IMG/VR virus record: IMGVR_UViG_3300020128_000040
From: a virus
Lineage: Duplodnaviria; Heunggongvirae; Uroviricota; Caudoviricetes; Herelleviridae
DNA: 64,000 bases
Direction: 5' to 3' (one strand)
Below are positions 57,001-63,000 of this stretch, piece after piece; positions within the stretch are counted from its first letter, which is position 1; every line of letters begins with the position of its first letter. A program made the position numbers.

Positions 57001-60000
57001 CCTTGGCCAGGGCGGTGACGCGGACCTCGCGCAGCAGGTACCAGAGGTAGTGGACGGGCCGCAGGGCCTCCTCCCACCCGCCGGAGCCGAACTTGTCGGG
57101 GCTCCAGCGGTAGACGGTGGCCTGGTAGCCCTGGCGGGCCCCCTCGGTGACCACGAGGTAGTGGGCCCCGGCCAGCTCGAACTGCTTCGAGCGGGTGGTG
57201 CGTCGTCGCGCCATGGCGACCTCCTTCATTTGGGGCCGCGAGGGGCCGGGCGCCTCAGCGGCGGCCCGACCCCCAGCGGCGGCGTGTCGGCCCTCCCGGG
57301 CCGCGCCTCACAGGGCGCGGTAGGAGTAGTTGGCCTGCCCGACGAGGTCGAACACGACTTCGGTGGGGCGGGTGTCGTCGTCGTCGCCGTCGTCGTCCAT
57401 GATGAGACGGGCGCCGTCGATGACGAGGCTGGAGCCGCGGGGCTCCAGGTCGGACGGGTGGAACGAGCAGTACAGGCTGGAGCGCCCCGACCTCAGGTAG
57501 AGGTCCTCGGGGGCCCGGGAGCCGCCGAACGGGTTGAACGCCACCACGCCGACGACGTCGTCCTGCTGCGCGTACTTCGCGGTGGCGAGGTAGCGCGGGG
57601 ACTCCACGGCCTTGATGTTGAGGTCCGCGACCAGGTCGGAGAACGAGCTGGAGGCGTCCGCGCGCATCTCGAAGGCCACGGCCCGCAGGTGGTCGTAGTT
57701 CAGCGGCACCTGGGAGGAGAACCGCACCGCGTCGGCGACACGGGGGTCGTCCTGGGCGACCTGCTCGCGCAGGTAGAGGCCGACCTCCTCGGGGGTGGGG
57801 TAGGCGAACCGGAGGTGGTAGTGGAACCGGCCGGGGCGGTTGACCAGGTAGGACGAGACCGACAGCAGGTCGTTGACCGTGACGCAGTACATGCGGCGGG
57901 TCGAGCTGGTGCCGTCGAACAGACCCAGGAACTGGGCCTGCTCGTCCGTGCCGCTCTCGCCGCCACGGCGGCCGCCGGCCGGGAAGACCTTCTCGAACTC
58001 GTCGAAGACGACCAGGGCCTCGCCCAGGGAGTCGATGAACGCGGCGATGCCCTCGAAGGACTGCGTAACGCGGACGACCGGCAGGCCGGACGCGAGGGCG
58101 TCACGGGCCAGCATCCGCAGGAACAGGGACTTGCCCTGGCCCTTGTCGCCCGAGAGCATGACGCCGAGCGACCTGGTGGAGGCCGCCCAGGCCCGCATGA
58201 CCTTGTCGACCTTGGACTGGCGCGAGCCGTAGACGCGCTCCTCGCCCACGGCCAGGTCCTCGACCTGGCGCAGGCTGAAGCCCGACAGGGGGCTGAACTC
58301 GACCACGTAGGTCGCGGCGGGCAGGCTGTCGAACGACTCGATCGAGGAGTCGTAGACCCGCAGGCTGCTGCCGGCCTTGATGTATGTGCTCGCCATGGGG
58401 CGGGGCTCCTTCTGTGTCATTTGGGGGCGCGGCCCCACCCCGGTCAGGGGGCGGGGCGCGCGGGTCCTACTGGTCCTGGCCGCCCCCGTCGGGGGAGCAG
58501 GCGCCGGACAGGTGCTCCTTGCGCCACCACCGCTCGTCGCGGGCGCTGTTGGCGGGGGAGGTGTAGCGGCCTGAGGTGTCGCGCATCTCGCCGCAATGCG
58601 GGCAGCGCGCCCAGCGGGCGGCCACGGCTCAGTCCTCGGGCTCTTCGACGCCGAGCAGGGTCGACGCCGACTCGGCGACGTTGCTGCTGAACAGCACGAG
58701 CAGGTCGGGCTGGGAGTTGCCGTCGGGGTCGTGGACGAGCCCGACGACGAGGTACTCCGAGGCGTACGGCAGCAGGGGCGAGACCTTGGAGGCGAGCAGG
58801 TCGTGCTCGTCCCACGAGTCGTCCCTGGAGGCCGCGGCCGCTAGGAAGTCGTCGAACGGCACCTGGACGAGCGCCGTGAGGAAGCCGTCCTCCTCCGCGT
58901 CGGCCACCGCCTGCTCGGCGGTGACGGGCGCGGCCAGCGGCCGGCCCGTGGTGACGGCGCGACGCGGCCGTTGCGGCAGTGCGCCCATGGCGCCGGGGTT
59001 CGCCCCCAGCCACTCGTGCAGGGGCTCGAGGTCGACAGTGTAGGGGCCGTCATGCGGGGCGATGAGCCCCAGGTCGACGGCCCGCTCGTACACCCAGTCG
59101 AGGTCGTAGGCCCCGTCTGCGGCGCGCTCGGCGAGGTCGGTGCGGCCGTCCTCGTCCAGCTCGGCCACGACCTGCTCGACACTGACCGTGACAGTGTCGA
59201 GGACCTCGATGTGGTCGTCGCGTGGCCCGGACCAGCGCTCCAGCTGGATGCTCACGGGGAAGGTGATGGGCGCAGTGGTCTGCGGCTCGGTCATGGGCGC
59301 GCCTCCTCGTCGTCGATGGGCAGGGCCTCCTGCACGAAGGCGGTGGGCCGGGGGACCTCCACCAGGGGGTAGGCGGGGGCGTCGTCCTCGGCCTCCTCGG
59401 CCATGGCGTCCTCCCAGCCCTCGGCGAAGTCGGGGTAGAAGGCCAGCGCCGCGGCGACCTCCTCCTCGGAGGCGTCGCCCTTGCCGGTCAGGCGTAGCAG
59501 GTCGTTCACGGCCTCCTCGACCGCGTCGGACACGACCGAGCTCACGTGCGAGCGCAGCCGGGCGGCGCGGGACGGGTTCGTCACCCGGACGCCGTGCCCT
59601 CGCGCGACGACGCCGAGGCCGCCCGCGGGCGGCTCCACGTCCTTCATGGTCGCGGTCATGTGCGCGCTCGCCTCCTCCTCGGTGGCGAAGACCTCGCGGC
59701 AGTCCGAGCAGCGGCCGTAGGGCGCGCCGTCCTCGGGGTCGAAGCGCCCCCGGGCTGGGGCCTGTGTCTGTGTCATGATGCGTTGCTCCAATCGCAGGAG
59801 AGCCCGCCCGAGTAGCCCCGCTTCTCCGACACGCAGAGGACGGAGCGGCCGTCGGGCAGGCTCACAGTGAACGTTTGAACGGAGCCGGAGCCCTCCTTGG
59901 GGGCCTCGGCCGAACCATCGCAGCCAGCAAGGGCCGCGGCCGCCAGCAGGGCGGCCAGGGCGGCGAGGACGCGGTGCGTCATGAGCGCGCCCCCTCGTCG

Positions 60001-63000
60001 TCGTCGTCGTCGCCCTCGAGGACGCAGTCCACGTCATCGGCAGGGCCGGTGCGGGGGCGCTCGGAGACGACGTGGGCGAAGCGGTTGACCAGGGCCCAGC
60101 CGGGCCTCAGGACGGTCCCGCCGTCATCGCCCTGGACGGCCGTCCACACCCTCTCGGTGGGGACCTGCTCGGACCTGACCTGCGCCTCGTCCCAGAAGAA
60201 CGAGCCGTCAGGGGCGAGCTCGACGCCGAACCGCTCGTCGAACTCCGCCTCGGTGATCTCGCCGGCGCTCATGAGCGGTCGCTCGACGCCAGCAGCTCGG
60301 CCACCGCCTCCACGATGGAGTCGGCGTCCATCGGGCAGAAGCGGTTGCGACCGCCGGTGTAGTCCTTCAGGTGGGCGGCGTTGCGCACGTAGGCCTCACG
60401 GCTCGTGCCGTGGTTCAGGTCGGCGCTGAAGTAGGCGACTAGGCCGGTGGAGGGGTCCTCCACGAAGCCGGAGCAGCCCTGGAGCTGGCCGTTCACGCGG
60501 ATGTTGGACACGTGCGGCACCAGGCCGGGGTGGGCCTTCTTCAGGGCGTTCTTGACCTTGGTCATGGACACGGCGCCGGGCAGCTTGCCCAGGCCGTACT
60601 CGTTGTAGCGGGCCATCTCGGGCCCTCCTCTCATTTAGGGCGCGGGTACGCCCCGAGGGGGCGCCCGTGCCGGGCTGTGCTCGAAGCGCTGGGGCGATGG
60701 CCGTCAGGCGAGGCCGACGGACTCCAGCGCACGGCGGGCGCCCTCGGCGACCGCCTCCGTGTAACGGCCGTACTGGTGGGGCTTCAGCCCCGCCAGCGGC
60801 AGCTCCTTGACGACCTCGGCCGCGATGGCCTGCGGCGAGGCGGCAGCCTCGCGCTGCAGGGCGAACGCCCCCCGCACGCCGCCGGCGACGAGCGCCTCCA
60901 GCTGAGGGTAGGTCTCGACGATCGGCTGCCCCTCGGGGTGGCCGACCTCGTCGGCCGAGTCCTCGTAGGCGTCGACCGTGCGGGCGGCCTTGGCGGCCTG
61001 GTCGTCGACGATGTCCTGAAGGTCCAGCATCAGGCCACCTCCTCTTCCTTCTTCTGGTCGGCGCTGCGCGATGCGGCCAGGGCGTGCTCAGCGGCGGCGA
61101 CGGCCTCGGCGAGGTCGTCCTCGGTCTGCTGGATGACCCGGTAGGCCTCCAGGCGCTGCGCCATCACGGCCAGCGCGCGCTCGCACGCCTCCACCCGCTC
61201 GTCCGAGGTGCGCCCCAGCAGGGCGAGCGTCTCTGCGCGCAGGTCGATGCCGTACTCGCGGATGTAGGCCTCCCACTTGCGGAACAGCGAGCGGGAGCCG
61301 TCGGGCCCGGACAGGCCCAGCGACACCCGCAGGGCGTCGTCGACGTCCGCCATCACGGCGGGCGGCAGCGACCCCATCGGGCGCACCAGGCGCGAGGCGT
61401 CCACGGTGTGGACCTGCTCGCACAGGGCCATCGACTGCTTCCGGCCGGCGCCGGCGGGCACCGGCACGTGCACCGGGCTGGAGCGCTTGCGCGAGGAGCT
61501 CGACAGGTAGACGACCGACACGAACCCCGAGCGGGCGTTGGAGGTGTCGTTCGACACGATGACGGCAGGGCGGTCGGGCCAGATCTCGGTGCCGACCGGC
61601 GGGCTGGCGGGGTCCGCGTCCACGAGCCACACCGAGCCCCGCACGGGGCCGGAGGGGCGCTCCTGGCGGCGGGCCCTGGAGGGGCGCGGCCGCGGGCGCG
61701 GGCGCTGCTCGGCGGTCATGAGCCATCACCCACCCAGGCGCCCTCGACCAGGTCGAGGTCGTGGACATGGACGGCGCCGCCGGTGGGGGCCAGGACGCGG
61801 GAGGTGAAGGCCTCGATGAGCTCGTCCTCCGACGCGCCTTCATCCACGTCCTCGCCCATGTCGCGCAGGCGCCCGGCGAGGTCGTCGGAGCGCTCCTGGC
61901 GGGTGGCGAACACGGCCAGGGCCGTGGAGCCGTCGCCGTCCGCGTAGTCGGTGAAGGCCGCGTACAGCCTCTGGGGCAGCACGACCGGCACCTCGACCTC
62001 GGACAGGTGCATGTCCACGCCCTCGTCGCTGAAGAGGTCGTAGACCTCGCGCAGCGCCACGTCGGCGTTGGCGCCGCCGAAGGGGGCGAGCAGCTCGTGG
62101 ACCTCGCGGCCGCCGTCGCGGGCGGCGTCAGCGCCCGGGTAGTTCGCGAGCAGGTGCTCGACGACCGCGTCCCTGCGGGCGGAGGCGTGCTCGAACACGC
62201 CCTCGAAGATGCAGGAGCCGTCGTCGAAGAGCTGGCCCAGGAAGACGGTGCGGGTCTGTTCAGGGTGGCTCGTCATGGCGAGTCCTCCTCGTTCATTTAG
62301 GGCCCCGTCCGCCCTGGCACGCGGCTCAGGGGGAGGGGCGGGTGTGCGTGGGGTGGGCGGGTCAGGCGACCTCCGAGGCCGCCTCGAGCAGCGCGCGGGC
62401 GATCGCCAGCACGCCGTCCCAGCCCTCGGCCGAGCGGTCGTCGGTCAGGTGCTTGAGCTCGCGCCCTGTGGCGCGGTACTTGTTGCCCTCGACGTGCATC
62501 TCGACCATGACGTACTGGTCGTAGCCGTCGGTCTGCACCGGGGAGATGGTCAGCCCCGGCACCAGGCCGCTGTCGCGCAGCGAGTCGGCGACCAGCTCCA
62601 CGGTGTGCAGGAAGTCGCCGCCGCCGTAGACGGGGCCGTCCGGGGCGTAGTCCTCGGGGTCCATCAGGGGGAGGTCCTCGTGCTCCGGCGCGCTGGACAG
62701 CGCAGCGGTCAGGGCGTCGTCGGCGAAGACGAGCCCGGGCGAGCCCTCCTCCACCGCGACGACCGAGTGCCCCAGGGGCACCAGGCCACGGCTGGCCTGG
62801 GCGAGCGCGTCGGCCACGGACGCGGCCCGCAGGACCAGCGCCCGGGTCGGGCGCGAGGCGTCGCCCCAGGGGGCGCGGGGGCCGTCGGCCGCTGGCTGGC
62901 ACAGCACCACATGCGGGCGCTCGGCGCTGATGGCGCCGGTGTTCTCTTCAGTCATTTCAGGGCCCCTCTCATGAGGCGTCAGGGGCAGGGGCCCCGCCCC

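What the first reader, a model, noticed from the sequence alone, without database searches (positions are those of the whole stretch)
57226..62975. Recurring intercistronic element in the minus-strand operon: GC hairpin + (G/C)GCCCY-AAATGA + SD + ATG
Five ~70-90-nt spacers in the minus-strand operon share an architecture read on the minus strand. They are the plus-strand segments around 62953-62975, 62293-62306, 60631-60644, 58417-58430 and 57226-57239. Each has a GC-rich stem-loop (for example ggggcccct-N20-aggggccc), then GGGCCCTGAAATGA / GGGGCCCTAAATGA / GCGCCCTAAATGA / GCCCCCAAATGA / GGCCCCAAATGA, then a strong RGGAGG, then the annotated ATG. In three cases the ATG inside AAATGA is in frame with the downstream start, and in one it opens a 7-codon uORF ending in ATGA. 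The element is absent from the single-gap and overlapping junctions. It looks like a modular translation-initiation or processing cassette, or a start-stop mini-uORF device, repeated through the operon.
Basis: seen in the sequence. Interest (0 to 1): 0.55.

Follow-up and report, generated by a model that had tools for sequence, protein, structure and literature searches.

The report
Hairpin plus AAAT gene-start box
Each long gap between genes in one operon of a large actinobacterial conjugative element holds a strong GC hairpin, then a short AAAT(G/C)A box next to the ribosome-binding site; the pattern is real and shared by related elements, but its function cannot be settled from sequence.

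Summary
All six AAATGA words in the 64-kb window lie on the minus strand. Five sit in the five long (70-93 nt) spacers of the minus-strand operon, far beyond composition-matched shuffles. Each spacer also has a stable GC hairpin with no U-tract. In spacers 2-5 the box lies between the hairpin and a strong Shine-Dalgarno (SD) sequence; in spacer 1 the SD is upstream and the box contains the start codon.

Four related elements (63-73% GC) show the same layout. 27 of 33 long spacers carry AAAT, mostly 14-26 nt before the start codon (consensus c-c-K-AAAT-S-A). The hairpins persist with unrelated sequences. The box is specific to this operon: about 1% of ordinary actinobacterial SD-linked starts have it, and 1 of 61 on this element's other strand.

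The mini-uORF / in-frame ATG idea fails, because neither the ATG nor its frame is conserved in orthologous spacers. A sigma-70 -10 element is excluded by spacing.

My best reading, at low confidence, is an RNA-level cistron-boundary cassette: a 3'-protective hairpin, then a single-stranded AAAU site for cleavage and/or ribosome entry. Rivals are a start signal for the element's own two-barrel RNA polymerase and a regulator-binding site like the mycobacteriophage start-associated sequences. 5'-end-resolved RNA-seq would decide.

The parts
62956..63042 (-). Spacer 1 (87 nt), between the UvrD-like helicase gene and the 197-aa gene.
   Evidence: Gene calls; sequence.
62984..63024 (-). Hairpin 1: 18-bp stem, 5-nt loop, no U-tract.
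   Evidence: whole spacer -54.5 kcal/mol, z -3.4.
62952..62957 (-). AAATGA box 1 (weak member). Its ATG (62953-62955) is the start codon, and the SD GAGAGGGG at 62963-62970 lies upstream.
   Evidence: Orthologues in L007 and L224 keep AAATGAC.
62277..62361 (-). Spacer 2 (85 nt), upstream of the 186-aa gene.
62302..62339 (-). Hairpin 2. It ends 3 nt before the box.
   Evidence: -25.6 kcal/mol.
62293..62304 (-). GGCCCTAAATGA box 2. SD GAGGAGG at 62284-62290; ATG at 62274-62276.
60617..60703 (-). Spacer 3 (87 nt), upstream of the 115-aa gene F.
60639..60671 (-). Hairpin 3. It ends 2 nt before the box.
   Evidence: -23.6 kcal/mol.
60631..60642 (-). CGCCCTAAATGA box 3. SD GAGGAGGG at 60623-60630; ATG at 60614-60616. 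This is the best-conserved copy: AAATGA is kept in L007, L008 and L224.
58397..58466 (-). Spacer 4 (70 nt), upstream of the AAA ATPase gene.
58425..58467 (-). Hairpin 4. It ends 2 nt before the box.
   Evidence: -31.7 kcal/mol.
58417..58428 (-). GCCCCCAAATGA box 4. SD AAGGAG at 58406-58411; ATG at 58394-58396.
   Evidence: The L007 orthologue reads AAATAG.
57215..57307 (-). Spacer 5 (93 nt), upstream of the 96-aa gene.
57235..57280 (-). Hairpin 5 (main stem-loop). A second, smaller hairpin lies at 57281-57307.
   Evidence: -41.6 kcal/mol.
57226..57237 (-). GGCCCCAAATGA box 5. SD AGGAGG at 57220-57225; ATG at 57212-57214.
   Evidence: The L220 and L221 orthologues read CTACATGA.
52540..52596 (-). 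A sixth long spacer of the same operon, with a small hairpin (52579-52594) and a degenerate box CAAACAGATCACAGAAGGAG.
51943..51982 (-). True end of the operon: a canonical intrinsic terminator. The hairpin CCCCCGCGAGCC-atcac-GGCTTGCGGGGG is followed by TCTTGTCTTTT. It contrasts with the U-less internal hairpins.
   Evidence: read directly from the sequence.

Best explanation
The five spacers are RNA-level cistron-boundary cassettes inside one long polycistronic transcript of a conjugative, phage-like element.

**Proposed mechanism.**
1. The GC hairpin placed just after each stop codon has no U-tract. I take it to be a barrier to 3'-5' exonucleases, and at most a weak attenuator, rather than a terminator.
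2. The AAAU(G/C)A box is the only A/U-rich, single-stranded stretch in the spacer. It starts 2-3 nt after the base of the structure and lies 0-9 nt before the SD.
3. I take the box to be the point where the transcript is cut and/or where a 30S subunit gains entry. Each downstream block of translationally coupled genes then becomes a separately stable unit that initiates translation on its own.
4. The nuclease could be a host RNase E/J-type enzyme or the MazF-fold endoribonuclease encoded in the same operon.

**Shown:** the anatomy, the statistics, the family-wide conservation of box and hairpin, and the operon specificity.

**Inferred:** cleavage, stabilisation and any effect on translation.
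For: **The box is real and strand-specific.**
- It passes the word-count and composition-weighted shuffle tests.
- In family spacers AAAT occurs 30 times, its complement ATTT once and AAAA 4 times. It is therefore a specific word, not general A-richness.

**It is conserved as a class.**
- 27 of 33 long spacers in five related elements (63-73% GC) carry AAAT.
- In orthologous spacers, sequence conservation starts at the box and runs through the SD to the ATG. The hairpin upstream is replaced by unrelated sequence that still folds.

**Predicted structure fits.**
- The box is predicted unpaired (probability about 0.9), directly 3' of the stable structure.

**The internal hairpins do not look like terminators.**
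- They lack U-tracts, and the scan found no canonical terminator on the minus strand in 52000-64000.
- The real operon end at 51943-51982 does have a hairpin plus U-tract.
- TANNNT-type promoters sit at the heads of the transcription units upstream (L228 about 3190 and about 6070-6100). The boxed spacers are therefore internal to operons.
- Mycobacterial RNA polymerase needs a U-tract to terminate, and U-less 3' structures are proposed to stabilise RNA ends (PMC3993855).

**The box is not a general ribosome-site feature.**
- Frequencies of AAAT within 40 nt upstream of SD-linked candidate starts:

| Set | Starts with AAAT |
|---|---|
| Ordinary actinobacterial loci | 13 of 1203 |
| This window, plus strand | 1 of 61 |
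| Family operon strand | 23 of 93 |

**A candidate nuclease is present.**
- A MazF-fold endoribonuclease gene is conserved in the same operon in all the relatives whose retrieved contigs span that part of the operon.
Against: - There are no expression or RNA-end data. Cleavage is pure inference.
- AAAT is not depleted inside the operon's coding sequences relative to codon-shuffled expectation (2 observed against 0.8 expected; 4 against 2.2; 7 against 11; 3 against 4.7). AAAU alone is therefore not a strongly deleterious cleavage signal.
- The box is lost or altered in close relatives while the flanks stay identical (CCAAATGA to CTACATGA in L220 and L221; absent in L007 spacer 2). Selection on it is modest.
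- The RNase E preference reported for mycobacteria (cleavage 5' of C; from my own knowledge) does not match AAAU.
- On the plus strand of this same element, hairpin-bearing spacers are mostly followed by promoters. By analogy this favours the promoter rival.
Confidence: 0.35

Rival explanations
1. Terminator-promoter cassettes for a non-canonical polymerase. The hairpins end one transcription unit. The AAAT(G/C)A box is a minimal start signal at or next to the transcription start site, used by the element's own 1849-aa single-chain two-barrel RNA polymerase or by a modified host enzyme. This would be comparable to the very short late-promoter motifs of jumbo-phage non-virion polymerases.
For: - The element encodes a protein with both two-barrel signatures, GDKDSDLHGNKGV and SFDGDFDGDS. 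The related element L226 encodes it too.
- The two strands carry two different gene-start signal classes. The plus strand has TANNNT followed by GATAAACNAGNNNAAAC, 9 copies against 1.4 expected.
- On the plus strand, hairpin-bearing spacers are mostly followed by promoters.
- In a 42%-GC phage that carries a gene F homologue, most spacers upstream of the neighbouring genes that I inspected carry a TTGACA-like promoter element.
- Conservation in orthologous spacers begins exactly at the box.
- In 72% GC DNA a 6-mer such as AAATGA is rare enough to be specific: 2.7 expected per 128 kb.
- The promoter used by YonO, the characterised single-chain relative, is still undefined (PMC5467207).
- Precedent from my own knowledge: the early region of phage phiC31 has U-less terminators (Ingham et al. 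1995, listed as a reference) and multiple conserved early promoters.
Against: - Nothing is conserved upstream of the box except a C-rich tendency.
- The true operon end uses a canonical U-tract terminator, and the unit heads have TANNNT promoters. Host polymerase can therefore account for transcription.
- A sigma-70 -10 reading is excluded. There is no A at -11 or T at -7 in register. The box lies only 0-9 nt from the SD, so a start 7 nt downstream would remove the SD. The promoter scan found 0 sites in 52000-64000.
- The two-barrel protein sits among transfer genes and could instead be a conjugative primase.
- The box changes in close relatives while the flanks stay conserved.
Confidence: 0.25
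2. Binding site for an element-encoded regulator that acts at the ribosome-binding region of many genes at once. This could be a translational repressor or activator, or a DNA-level roadblock. The analogues are the start-associated sequences (SAS/ESAS) of Cluster K mycobacteriophages, the stoperators of Cluster A phages, and the T4 RegA sites.
For: - The box is short, asymmetric, in one orientation, next to the start site, and found at many non-orthologous genes of the non-structural operon of an actinobacterial mobile element.
- It is often preceded by an inverted repeat.
- It is absent from host-like loci.
- This is the same descriptive pattern as SAS/ESAS, whose function is still unknown (PMC3203893; PMC12699233).
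Against: - Only about 6-7 positions are conserved, against 13 for SAS or stoperators.
- No candidate binding protein was identified.
- The inverted repeats here have no conserved sequence, unlike ESAS, and do fold as RNA.
- The box lies upstream of the SD rather than containing it.
Confidence: 0.2
3. Passive structural insulator plus shared ancestry. A few unpaired A/U residues keep the SD from pairing with the C-rich hairpin flanks. The repeated word reflects copying of ribosome-site modules between junctions, not recognition by any factor.
For: - The box is predicted unpaired, and the C-rich flank could otherwise pair with GGAGG.
- Extended modules recur at non-orthologous genes, for example AAATGA-CACAGAAGGAG, AAACAGATCACAGAAGGAG and AAATGAAAACAGAAGGAG.
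- The box is easily lost in relatives.
Against: - AAAT is preferred 30:4 over AAAA and 30:10 over AAAC, although A is more frequent than T in the spacers.
- The word persists across elements that differ by 10% in GC and at about 14 independent junction types.
Confidence: 0.15
4. The ATG inside AAATGA is used, either as an alternative in-frame start or as a mini-uORF that couples translation to the main ORF.
For: In this window three box ATGs are in frame with the annotated start. One opens a 7-codon uORF that ends in ATGA on the main start.
Against: - Three of four in frame has a chance probability of about 0.11 (my calculation).
- The frame is not kept in orthologues: 18 nt here against 17, 16 and 19 nt.
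- The ATG itself is absent in 14 of 30 family sites.
- No SD lies upstream of the box ATG.
Confidence: 0.03

Closest known systems
[quoted passage not shown] 2011, PMC3203893)
   Same: - Short asymmetric repeat in one orientation, a few nt upstream of the start codons of many unrelated non-structural genes in an actinobacterial mobile element.
- About half of the SAS copies are preceded by inverted repeats.
- Absent from host genomes.
- Function still unknown as of 2025.
   Different: - The sequence differs: GGGATAGGAGCCC against c-c-K-AAAT-S-A.
- SAS is 13 bp and contains the SD. This box has about 6-7 informative positions and lies upstream of the SD.
- ESAS repeats have a conserved sequence and poor RNA pairing. 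The hairpins here have no conserved sequence and near-perfect pairing.
- The host element is a conjugative element with a type IV secretion system, not a siphovirus.
Intercistronic processing and stabiliser hairpins in polycistronic mRNAs, such as the phage T7 early RNase III sites, the Rhodobacter puf operon and E. coli REP hairpins (from my own knowledge; the principle is discussed in PMC3993855)
   Same: - Stable hairpins placed between cistrons of one long transcript.
- No U-tract.
- A single-stranded A/U-rich segment next to the hairpin that could be an endonuclease site.
- This is the mechanism proposed in the best explanation.
   Different: - T7 sites are cut inside the hairpin by RNase III and have conserved internal loops.
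- REP elements are repeated sequences.
- Here the hairpins are all different and a separate short box is conserved.
- No cleavage has been shown.
U-less hairpin terminators plus multiple conserved early promoters in the Streptomyces phage phiC31 early region (Ingham et al. 1993 and 1995; the 1995 paper is listed; details from my own knowledge)
   Same: A high-GC actinobacterial mobile element whose co-directional early genes are punctuated by GC hairpins without poly-U tails, followed by a repeated conserved signal and a ribosome site.
   Different: - The phiC31 early promoters are longer conserved sequences with defined start sites upstream of the SD.
- Here only about 7 nt abutting the SD are conserved.
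- No start site is known.
Short start-site-proximal promoter motifs of non-canonical two-barrel phage RNA polymerases (phiKZ and AR9 non-virion polymerases; YonO of SPbeta, PMC5467207)
   Same: The element encodes a single-chain two-barrel polymerase-like protein. Such enzymes work without sigma. For the jumbo-phage enzymes the promoters are only about 4-6 nt long (from my own knowledge).
   Different: - No link between this protein and the box has been shown.
- The YonO promoter is undefined.
- The protein here may be a conjugative primase.
T4 RegB, a phage-encoded toxin-like endoribonuclease that cuts GGAG in the SD of the phage's own early mRNAs (from my own knowledge)
   Same: A mobile-element operon that encodes a toxin-fold endoribonuclease (here MazF-fold) and also carries a short repeated motif at the ribosome-binding regions of its own genes.
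   Different: - The fold family differs (MazF against RelE-like).
- The motif differs.
- The specificity of this MazF-like protein is unknown and nothing has been tested.

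Membership tests
Cluster K SAS/ESAS | Match to 5'-GGGATAGGAGCCC with at most 2 deviations, 3-7 bp upstream of the start codon. | tested here: not met
   The spacer sequences contain no such 13-mer. The box here is AAAT(G/C)A, upstream of the SD.
Cluster K SAS/ESAS | One orientation only, immediately upstream of many starts of non-structural genes, and rare elsewhere. 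| tested here: met
   All AAATGA words are on the minus strand. 27 of 33 family spacers carry AAAT. About 1% of generic actinobacterial starts do.
Cluster K SAS/ESAS | ESAS: 17-bp inverted repeats with a conserved consensus sequence. | tested here: not met
   The hairpin arms differ completely between spacers and between orthologues.
Canonical intrinsic terminator | A GC-rich hairpin followed immediately by a 7-9-nt U-rich tract. | tested here: not met
   The scan found no minus-strand terminator in 52000-64000. The hairpins are followed by CCCY-AAAU. The operon end at 51943-51982 does meet the definition.
Sigma-70-type promoter (-10 TANNNT, with or without -35) | A at -11 and T at -7 of a hexamer placed so that the start site lies upstream of the SD. 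| tested here: not met
   0 promoter-like sites in 52000-64000. CTAAAT, CCAAAT and ATAAAT lack A at position 2 of the hexamer. The box is 0-9 nt from the SD.
Any Rfam family (cis-regulatory RNA, leader, riboswitch) | A covariance-model hit at the gathering score. | tested here: not met
   0 hits in the whole window. Only chance-level hits at E above 0.4 in 56500-64000.
Upstream ORF / start-stop regulatory device | A conserved upstream AUG with a conserved frame or stop relation to the main ORF. | tested here: not met
   The ATG is missing in 14 of 30 sites. The frame differs among orthologues.
Integron attC sites (considered because of variable hairpins between co-oriented, exchangeable genes) | RYYYAAC ... 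GTTRRRY core sites flanking the imperfect palindrome, with an integron integrase nearby. | tested here: not met
   The bases before AAAT are CCT, CAT, CCC, CTG or ACG, never GTT. No IntI-like gene was found in the Pfam scans.
RNase E/J or MazF cleavage site | Experimentally mapped 5'-monophosphate ends at the motif. | not testable with these tools
   Only context is available: the box is predicted single-stranded and a MazF-fold gene sits in the operon.
Promoter of a two-barrel single-chain RNA polymerase | 5'-triphosphate transcript starts at the motif that depend on the polymerase. | not testable with these tools
   The polymerase-like gene is present. No transcript data are available.

The most novel reading that the evidence does not exclude
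The hairpin and AAAT(G/C)A cassettes are the gene-end and gene-start signals of a private transcription system. The element's 1849-aa single-chain two-barrel RNA polymerase (YonO/QDE-1-like) would start at the minimal AAAT box, possibly on the hairpin-forming single strand just after conjugative transfer. It would express a phage-like early operon (helicase, ClpB-like ATPase, MazF-like RNase, dNMP kinase, MazG-like enzyme) independently of host sigma factors. A second novel reading is that the boxes are self-targets of the operon's MazF-like endoribonuclease, as with T4 RegB.
Probability: 0.12. Interest if true: 0.85.

Novelty: new variant of a known kind. Interest (0 to 1): 0.45.

Why it matters
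- If the box is a processing or ribosome-entry signal, it shows how a very GC-rich mobile element divides a roughly 26-kb transcript into separately controlled units with a 6-7-nt word. In 72% GC DNA that word is as rare as a much longer motif.
- If the box is a start signal for the element's own two-barrel polymerase, it would define the first promoter for this enigmatic enzyme class outside jumbo phages. It would also show a conjugative element carrying its own transcription system.
- Either way, the box is a simple sequence marker for a so-far undescribed family of large actinobacterial conjugative, phage-like elements.
- It is also a tractable relative of the unexplained start-associated sequences of mycobacteriophages.

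Tried and rejected
1. **Close relatives in the annotated collections.** The phage and plasmid collections gave only short gene-level hits and no related element.
2. **Genome and metagenome scans with the ATPase alignment.** These returned only relatives at 50% identity or less, mostly Microbacterium, in unrelated contexts and without the box. Contigs for P0007 and P0011 were also unrelated contexts.
3. **Helicase search to walk upstream.** It did not return the full-length protein. I walked upstream through the IMG/VR copy instead.
4. **Naive shared-k-mer shuffle test.** It was uninformative because GC-rich spacers share GC words by chance. I replaced it with a composition-weighted test.
5. 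**Sense versus antisense folding and G-U pair counts, to infer the acting strand.** This was uninformative. The antisense strand folds slightly better because it is G/U-rich, and the stems are nearly all Watson-Crick pairs.
6. **Motif avoidance in coding sequence.** The counts were too small and showed no depletion.
7. **Readings rejected on the sequence:**
   - a stop-codon trap or read-through frame, because the frames of TAA and TGA relative to the upstream stop are inconsistent;
   - an extension of the SD-16S pairing, because AAAU lies beyond the 3' end of the 16S rRNA;
   - a bidirectional terminator, because the T-run precedes the hairpin on the other strand;
   - a REP, MITE or IS200-type repeat, because the hairpins are all different;
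   - an integron attC site, because there is no GTT core and no integrase.
8. **The UACAU coincidence.** The changed box in L220 and L221 reads UACAU, the site of the Bacillus and Staphylococcus MazF enzymes (specificity from my own knowledge). I noted it but did not rely on it, because it comes from a single junction (two close relatives).

Full report
**Context**

The window is about 70% GC and carries a conjugative element. Pfam scans identify:
- a MobL relaxase (29441-31705);
- a VirD4-type coupling protein (37822-41853);
- topoisomerase III (11200-13410);
- a cell-wall hydrolase;
- a ClpB-like ATPase.

All of these are on the plus strand. A 1849-aa protein (42032-47581) carries both two-barrel RNA-polymerase signatures, GDKDSDLHGNKGV and SFDGDFDGDS.

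The finding lies in a long minus-strand operon that converges on the transfer genes. Its genes are:
- a UvrD-type helicase;
- two unknown proteins;
- a MazF-fold protein;
- about eight small unknown proteins;
- an AAA ATPase (phrog_2376);
- a dNMP kinase;
- a MazG-like enzyme.

The identical element occurs on metagenome contigs of up to 142 kb, and IMG/VR lists one copy as viral. Nothing close exists in the phage, plasmid or GTDB genome collections.

**The observation**

AAATGA lies at the five stated places on the minus strand.
- All six copies in the window are on that strand. The sixth (54813) is a plain stop/start overlap.
- CCCNAAATGA occurs 4 times against 0.08 expected.
- Matches to GGCCCYAAATGA with at most 1 mismatch are exactly the four strong copies. 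Spacer 1 needs an insertion.
- A naive shared-word test is not significant in such GC-rich spacers.
- A composition-weighted test is decisive. AAATGA in 5 of 5 spacers scores 11.4 against a shuffle maximum of 6.1 (0 of 400). AAAT in 7 of 7 spacers scores 7.6 against 3.6.
- Each spacer contains a stable hairpin, with z between -2.6 and -3.4 for four of the five.
- When only the part upstream of the box is folded, the structure ends 2-3 nt before AAAT in all five.
- The box itself is predicted unpaired.
- All other junctions in the operon overlap or are 4 nt or shorter.

**Beyond the window**

The same contig continues upstream (L001, L228).
- Two further spacers read hairpin-cATAAATCCGA-GAGGAG and hairpin-cATAAATACGA-AAGGAAG.
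- A third, about 14 kb upstream of the window end, reads hairpin-cgcccTAAATGA-gcGAGGAGG.

Four related elements were recovered through the ATPase and gene F.

| Locus | Identity to the window protein | GC |
|---|---|---|
| L007 | 83% (ATPase) | not measured |
| L008 | 67% (ATPase) | not measured |
| L224 | 70% (gene F) | 63% |
| L226 | 66% (gene F) | 65% |

L226 also encodes the polymerase-like protein.

- Across the five elements, 27 of 33 long spacers carry AAAT, mostly 14-26 nt before the start codon. The consensus is c-c-K-AAAT-S-A followed by the SD.
- AAAT occurs 30 times in these spacers. AAAA occurs 4 times and the complement ATTT once.
- In L226 all nine AAAT[GC]A words are on the operon strand and eight are intergenic.
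- Orthologous spacers keep a hairpin, but with unrelated sequence. Conservation begins at the box and runs through the SD to the ATG.
- The box is not immutable. It reads AAATAG in L007 spacer 4 and CTACATGA in L220 and L221 spacer 5, and it is absent from L007 spacer 2.

**Specificity**

- AAAT lies within 40 nt upstream of 13 of 1203 SD-linked candidate starts in ordinary actinobacterial loci. The figures are 1 of 61 on this window's plus strand and 23 of 93 on the family operon strand.
- Two phages that carry a gene F homologue lack the box.
- It is therefore not a general ribosome-site or host-wide feature.

**What it is not**

- *A mini-uORF or alternative start.* The ATG is missing from 14 of 30 sites. 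The box-to-start distance for gene F is 18, 17, 16 and 19 nt in four elements.
- *A sigma-70 -10 element.* No hexamer has A at position 2 and T at position 6 in register. The box is 0-9 nt from the SD. The scan finds no promoter in 52000-64000.
- *A canonical terminator.* There is no U-tract. The true operon end at 51943-51982 has a hairpin followed by TCTTGTCTTTT.
- *A known RNA family.* There are no Rfam hits.
- *A repeated mobile sequence or an attC site.* The hairpins are all different and there is no GTT core.

**What it most likely is**

- Upstream, the transcription units on this strand begin with AT-rich TANNNT-type promoters. One is followed by a GTCCTCGGTAAAC leader like those on the plus strand.
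- The operon ends with a canonical terminator.
- The boxed spacers are therefore internal to a transcript that host polymerase can make.
- Mycobacterial polymerase does not stop at U-less hairpins (PMC3993855).
- On this basis I read the hairpins as 3'-end protectors or weak attenuators. I read the single-stranded AAAU box, which abuts the SD, as the point of endonucleolytic separation and/or ribosome entry for the next block of coupled genes.
- Confidence is only about 0.35, because nothing about RNA ends is known. In addition, AAAT is not avoided in coding sequence, and the box drifts in close relatives.

**Rivals**

1. *A start signal for the element's own two-barrel polymerase (0.25).*
   - The polymerase gene is present.
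   - The two strands carry two distinct signal classes.
   - On the plus strand, hairpins are paired with promoters.
   - YonO has no defined promoter.
2. *A regulator-binding site like SAS/ESAS (0.2).* SAS/ESAS has the same descriptive pattern and is still unexplained.
3. *A passive structural insulator copied between junctions (0.15).*
4. *The uORF reading (0.03).*

A speculative sub-case of the best explanation is that the nuclease is the operon's own MazF-fold protein, by analogy with T4 RegB. The altered box in L220 and L221 reads UACAU, the known Bacillus and Staphylococcus MazF site. That is a single junction (two close relatives).

**Verdict**

This is a real, family-conserved, operon-specific gene-start box paired with sequence-variable hairpins. 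It is a new variant of the start-associated, intercistronic signals known from actinobacterial phages. Its function is open, and 5'-end-resolved RNA-seq would decide among the explanations.

Noticed in passing
window plus strand: 3972-3988, 5571-5587, 11195-11211, 13559-13575, 26490-26506, 33342-33358, 33543-33559, 37817-37833, 51539-51555: A second recurring element, found only on the plus strand. It is a conserved leader, (A)GTCCTGATAAAC-NAG-NNG-AAAC. Where I read the flanking sequence it sits directly after a TANNNT -10-like hexamer and upstream of the first gene of a transfer-gene unit. There are 9 copies against 1.4 expected. A similar GTCCTCGGTAAAC follows a promoter at L228 about 3190. 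It could be an operator or a 5'-UTR element.
   Followed up: partly
window 42032-47581 (+): A 1849-aa protein with both two-barrel RNA-polymerase motifs, beta-like GDKDSDLHGNKGV and beta'-like SFDGDFDGDS. It is encoded next to the coupling protein. An orthologue is present in L226. It is YonO- or NCgl1702-like. It may be a private transcriptase or a conjugative primase.
   Followed up: partly
window 61030-61719 (-) and 61716-62276 (-): A 229-aa MazF/PemK-fold protein with a C-terminal extension of about 90 aa (E about 1e-12 to solved MazF structures). Its start overlaps by 4 nt the stop of the upstream 186-aa unknown gene, which is a possible antitoxin. The pair is conserved in L007, L008, L224 and L226.
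   Followed up: partly
window 51920-51982: The convergent junction of the two operons. A canonical hairpin plus U-tract terminator serves the minus-strand operon. An adjacent second hairpin (ccgggggagcgctgctccccgg) probably serves the plus-strand operon.
   Followed up: partly
window 29392-29506 (+): The spacer upstream of the MobL relaxase gene has a GC inverted repeat (ggggcccggc...gccgggcccc). It has no promoter-like AT-rich segment and no AAAT box. It is a candidate oriT.
   Followed up: no
window 1-4000: The GC content here is lower (58-60%) than in the rest of the window (about 70%). The segment holds a GmrSD/HNH restriction-like gene (667-1899) next to an SPFH/flotillin gene (3858-5624). 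It may be a cargo or defence island, or the edge of the element.
   Followed up: no
L001, L007, L008, L224, L226 spacers (sense strand): Outside the hairpins the spacers are C-rich and G-poor on the mRNA strand (C 39%, G 29% overall; long runs such as CCCGCCCACCCCACGCACACCCGCCCC). This resembles Rho-utilisation sites.
   Followed up: no
L220 1707-1779 and L221 1922-2012 (orthologues of spacer 5): The box CCAAATGA is replaced by CTACATGA while both flanks stay identical. As RNA this contains UACAU, the recognition site of the Bacillus and Staphylococcus MazF enzymes (the specificity is from my own knowledge).
   Followed up: no
L225 (42% GC phage contig carrying a gene F homologue): Most spacers upstream of the genes around the gene F homologue that I inspected carry a repeated TTGACA-like promoter element (GGTCACACAAT...GTTTGACA...). 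This is a classical phage early-promoter array and is useful as a contrast.
   Followed up: no
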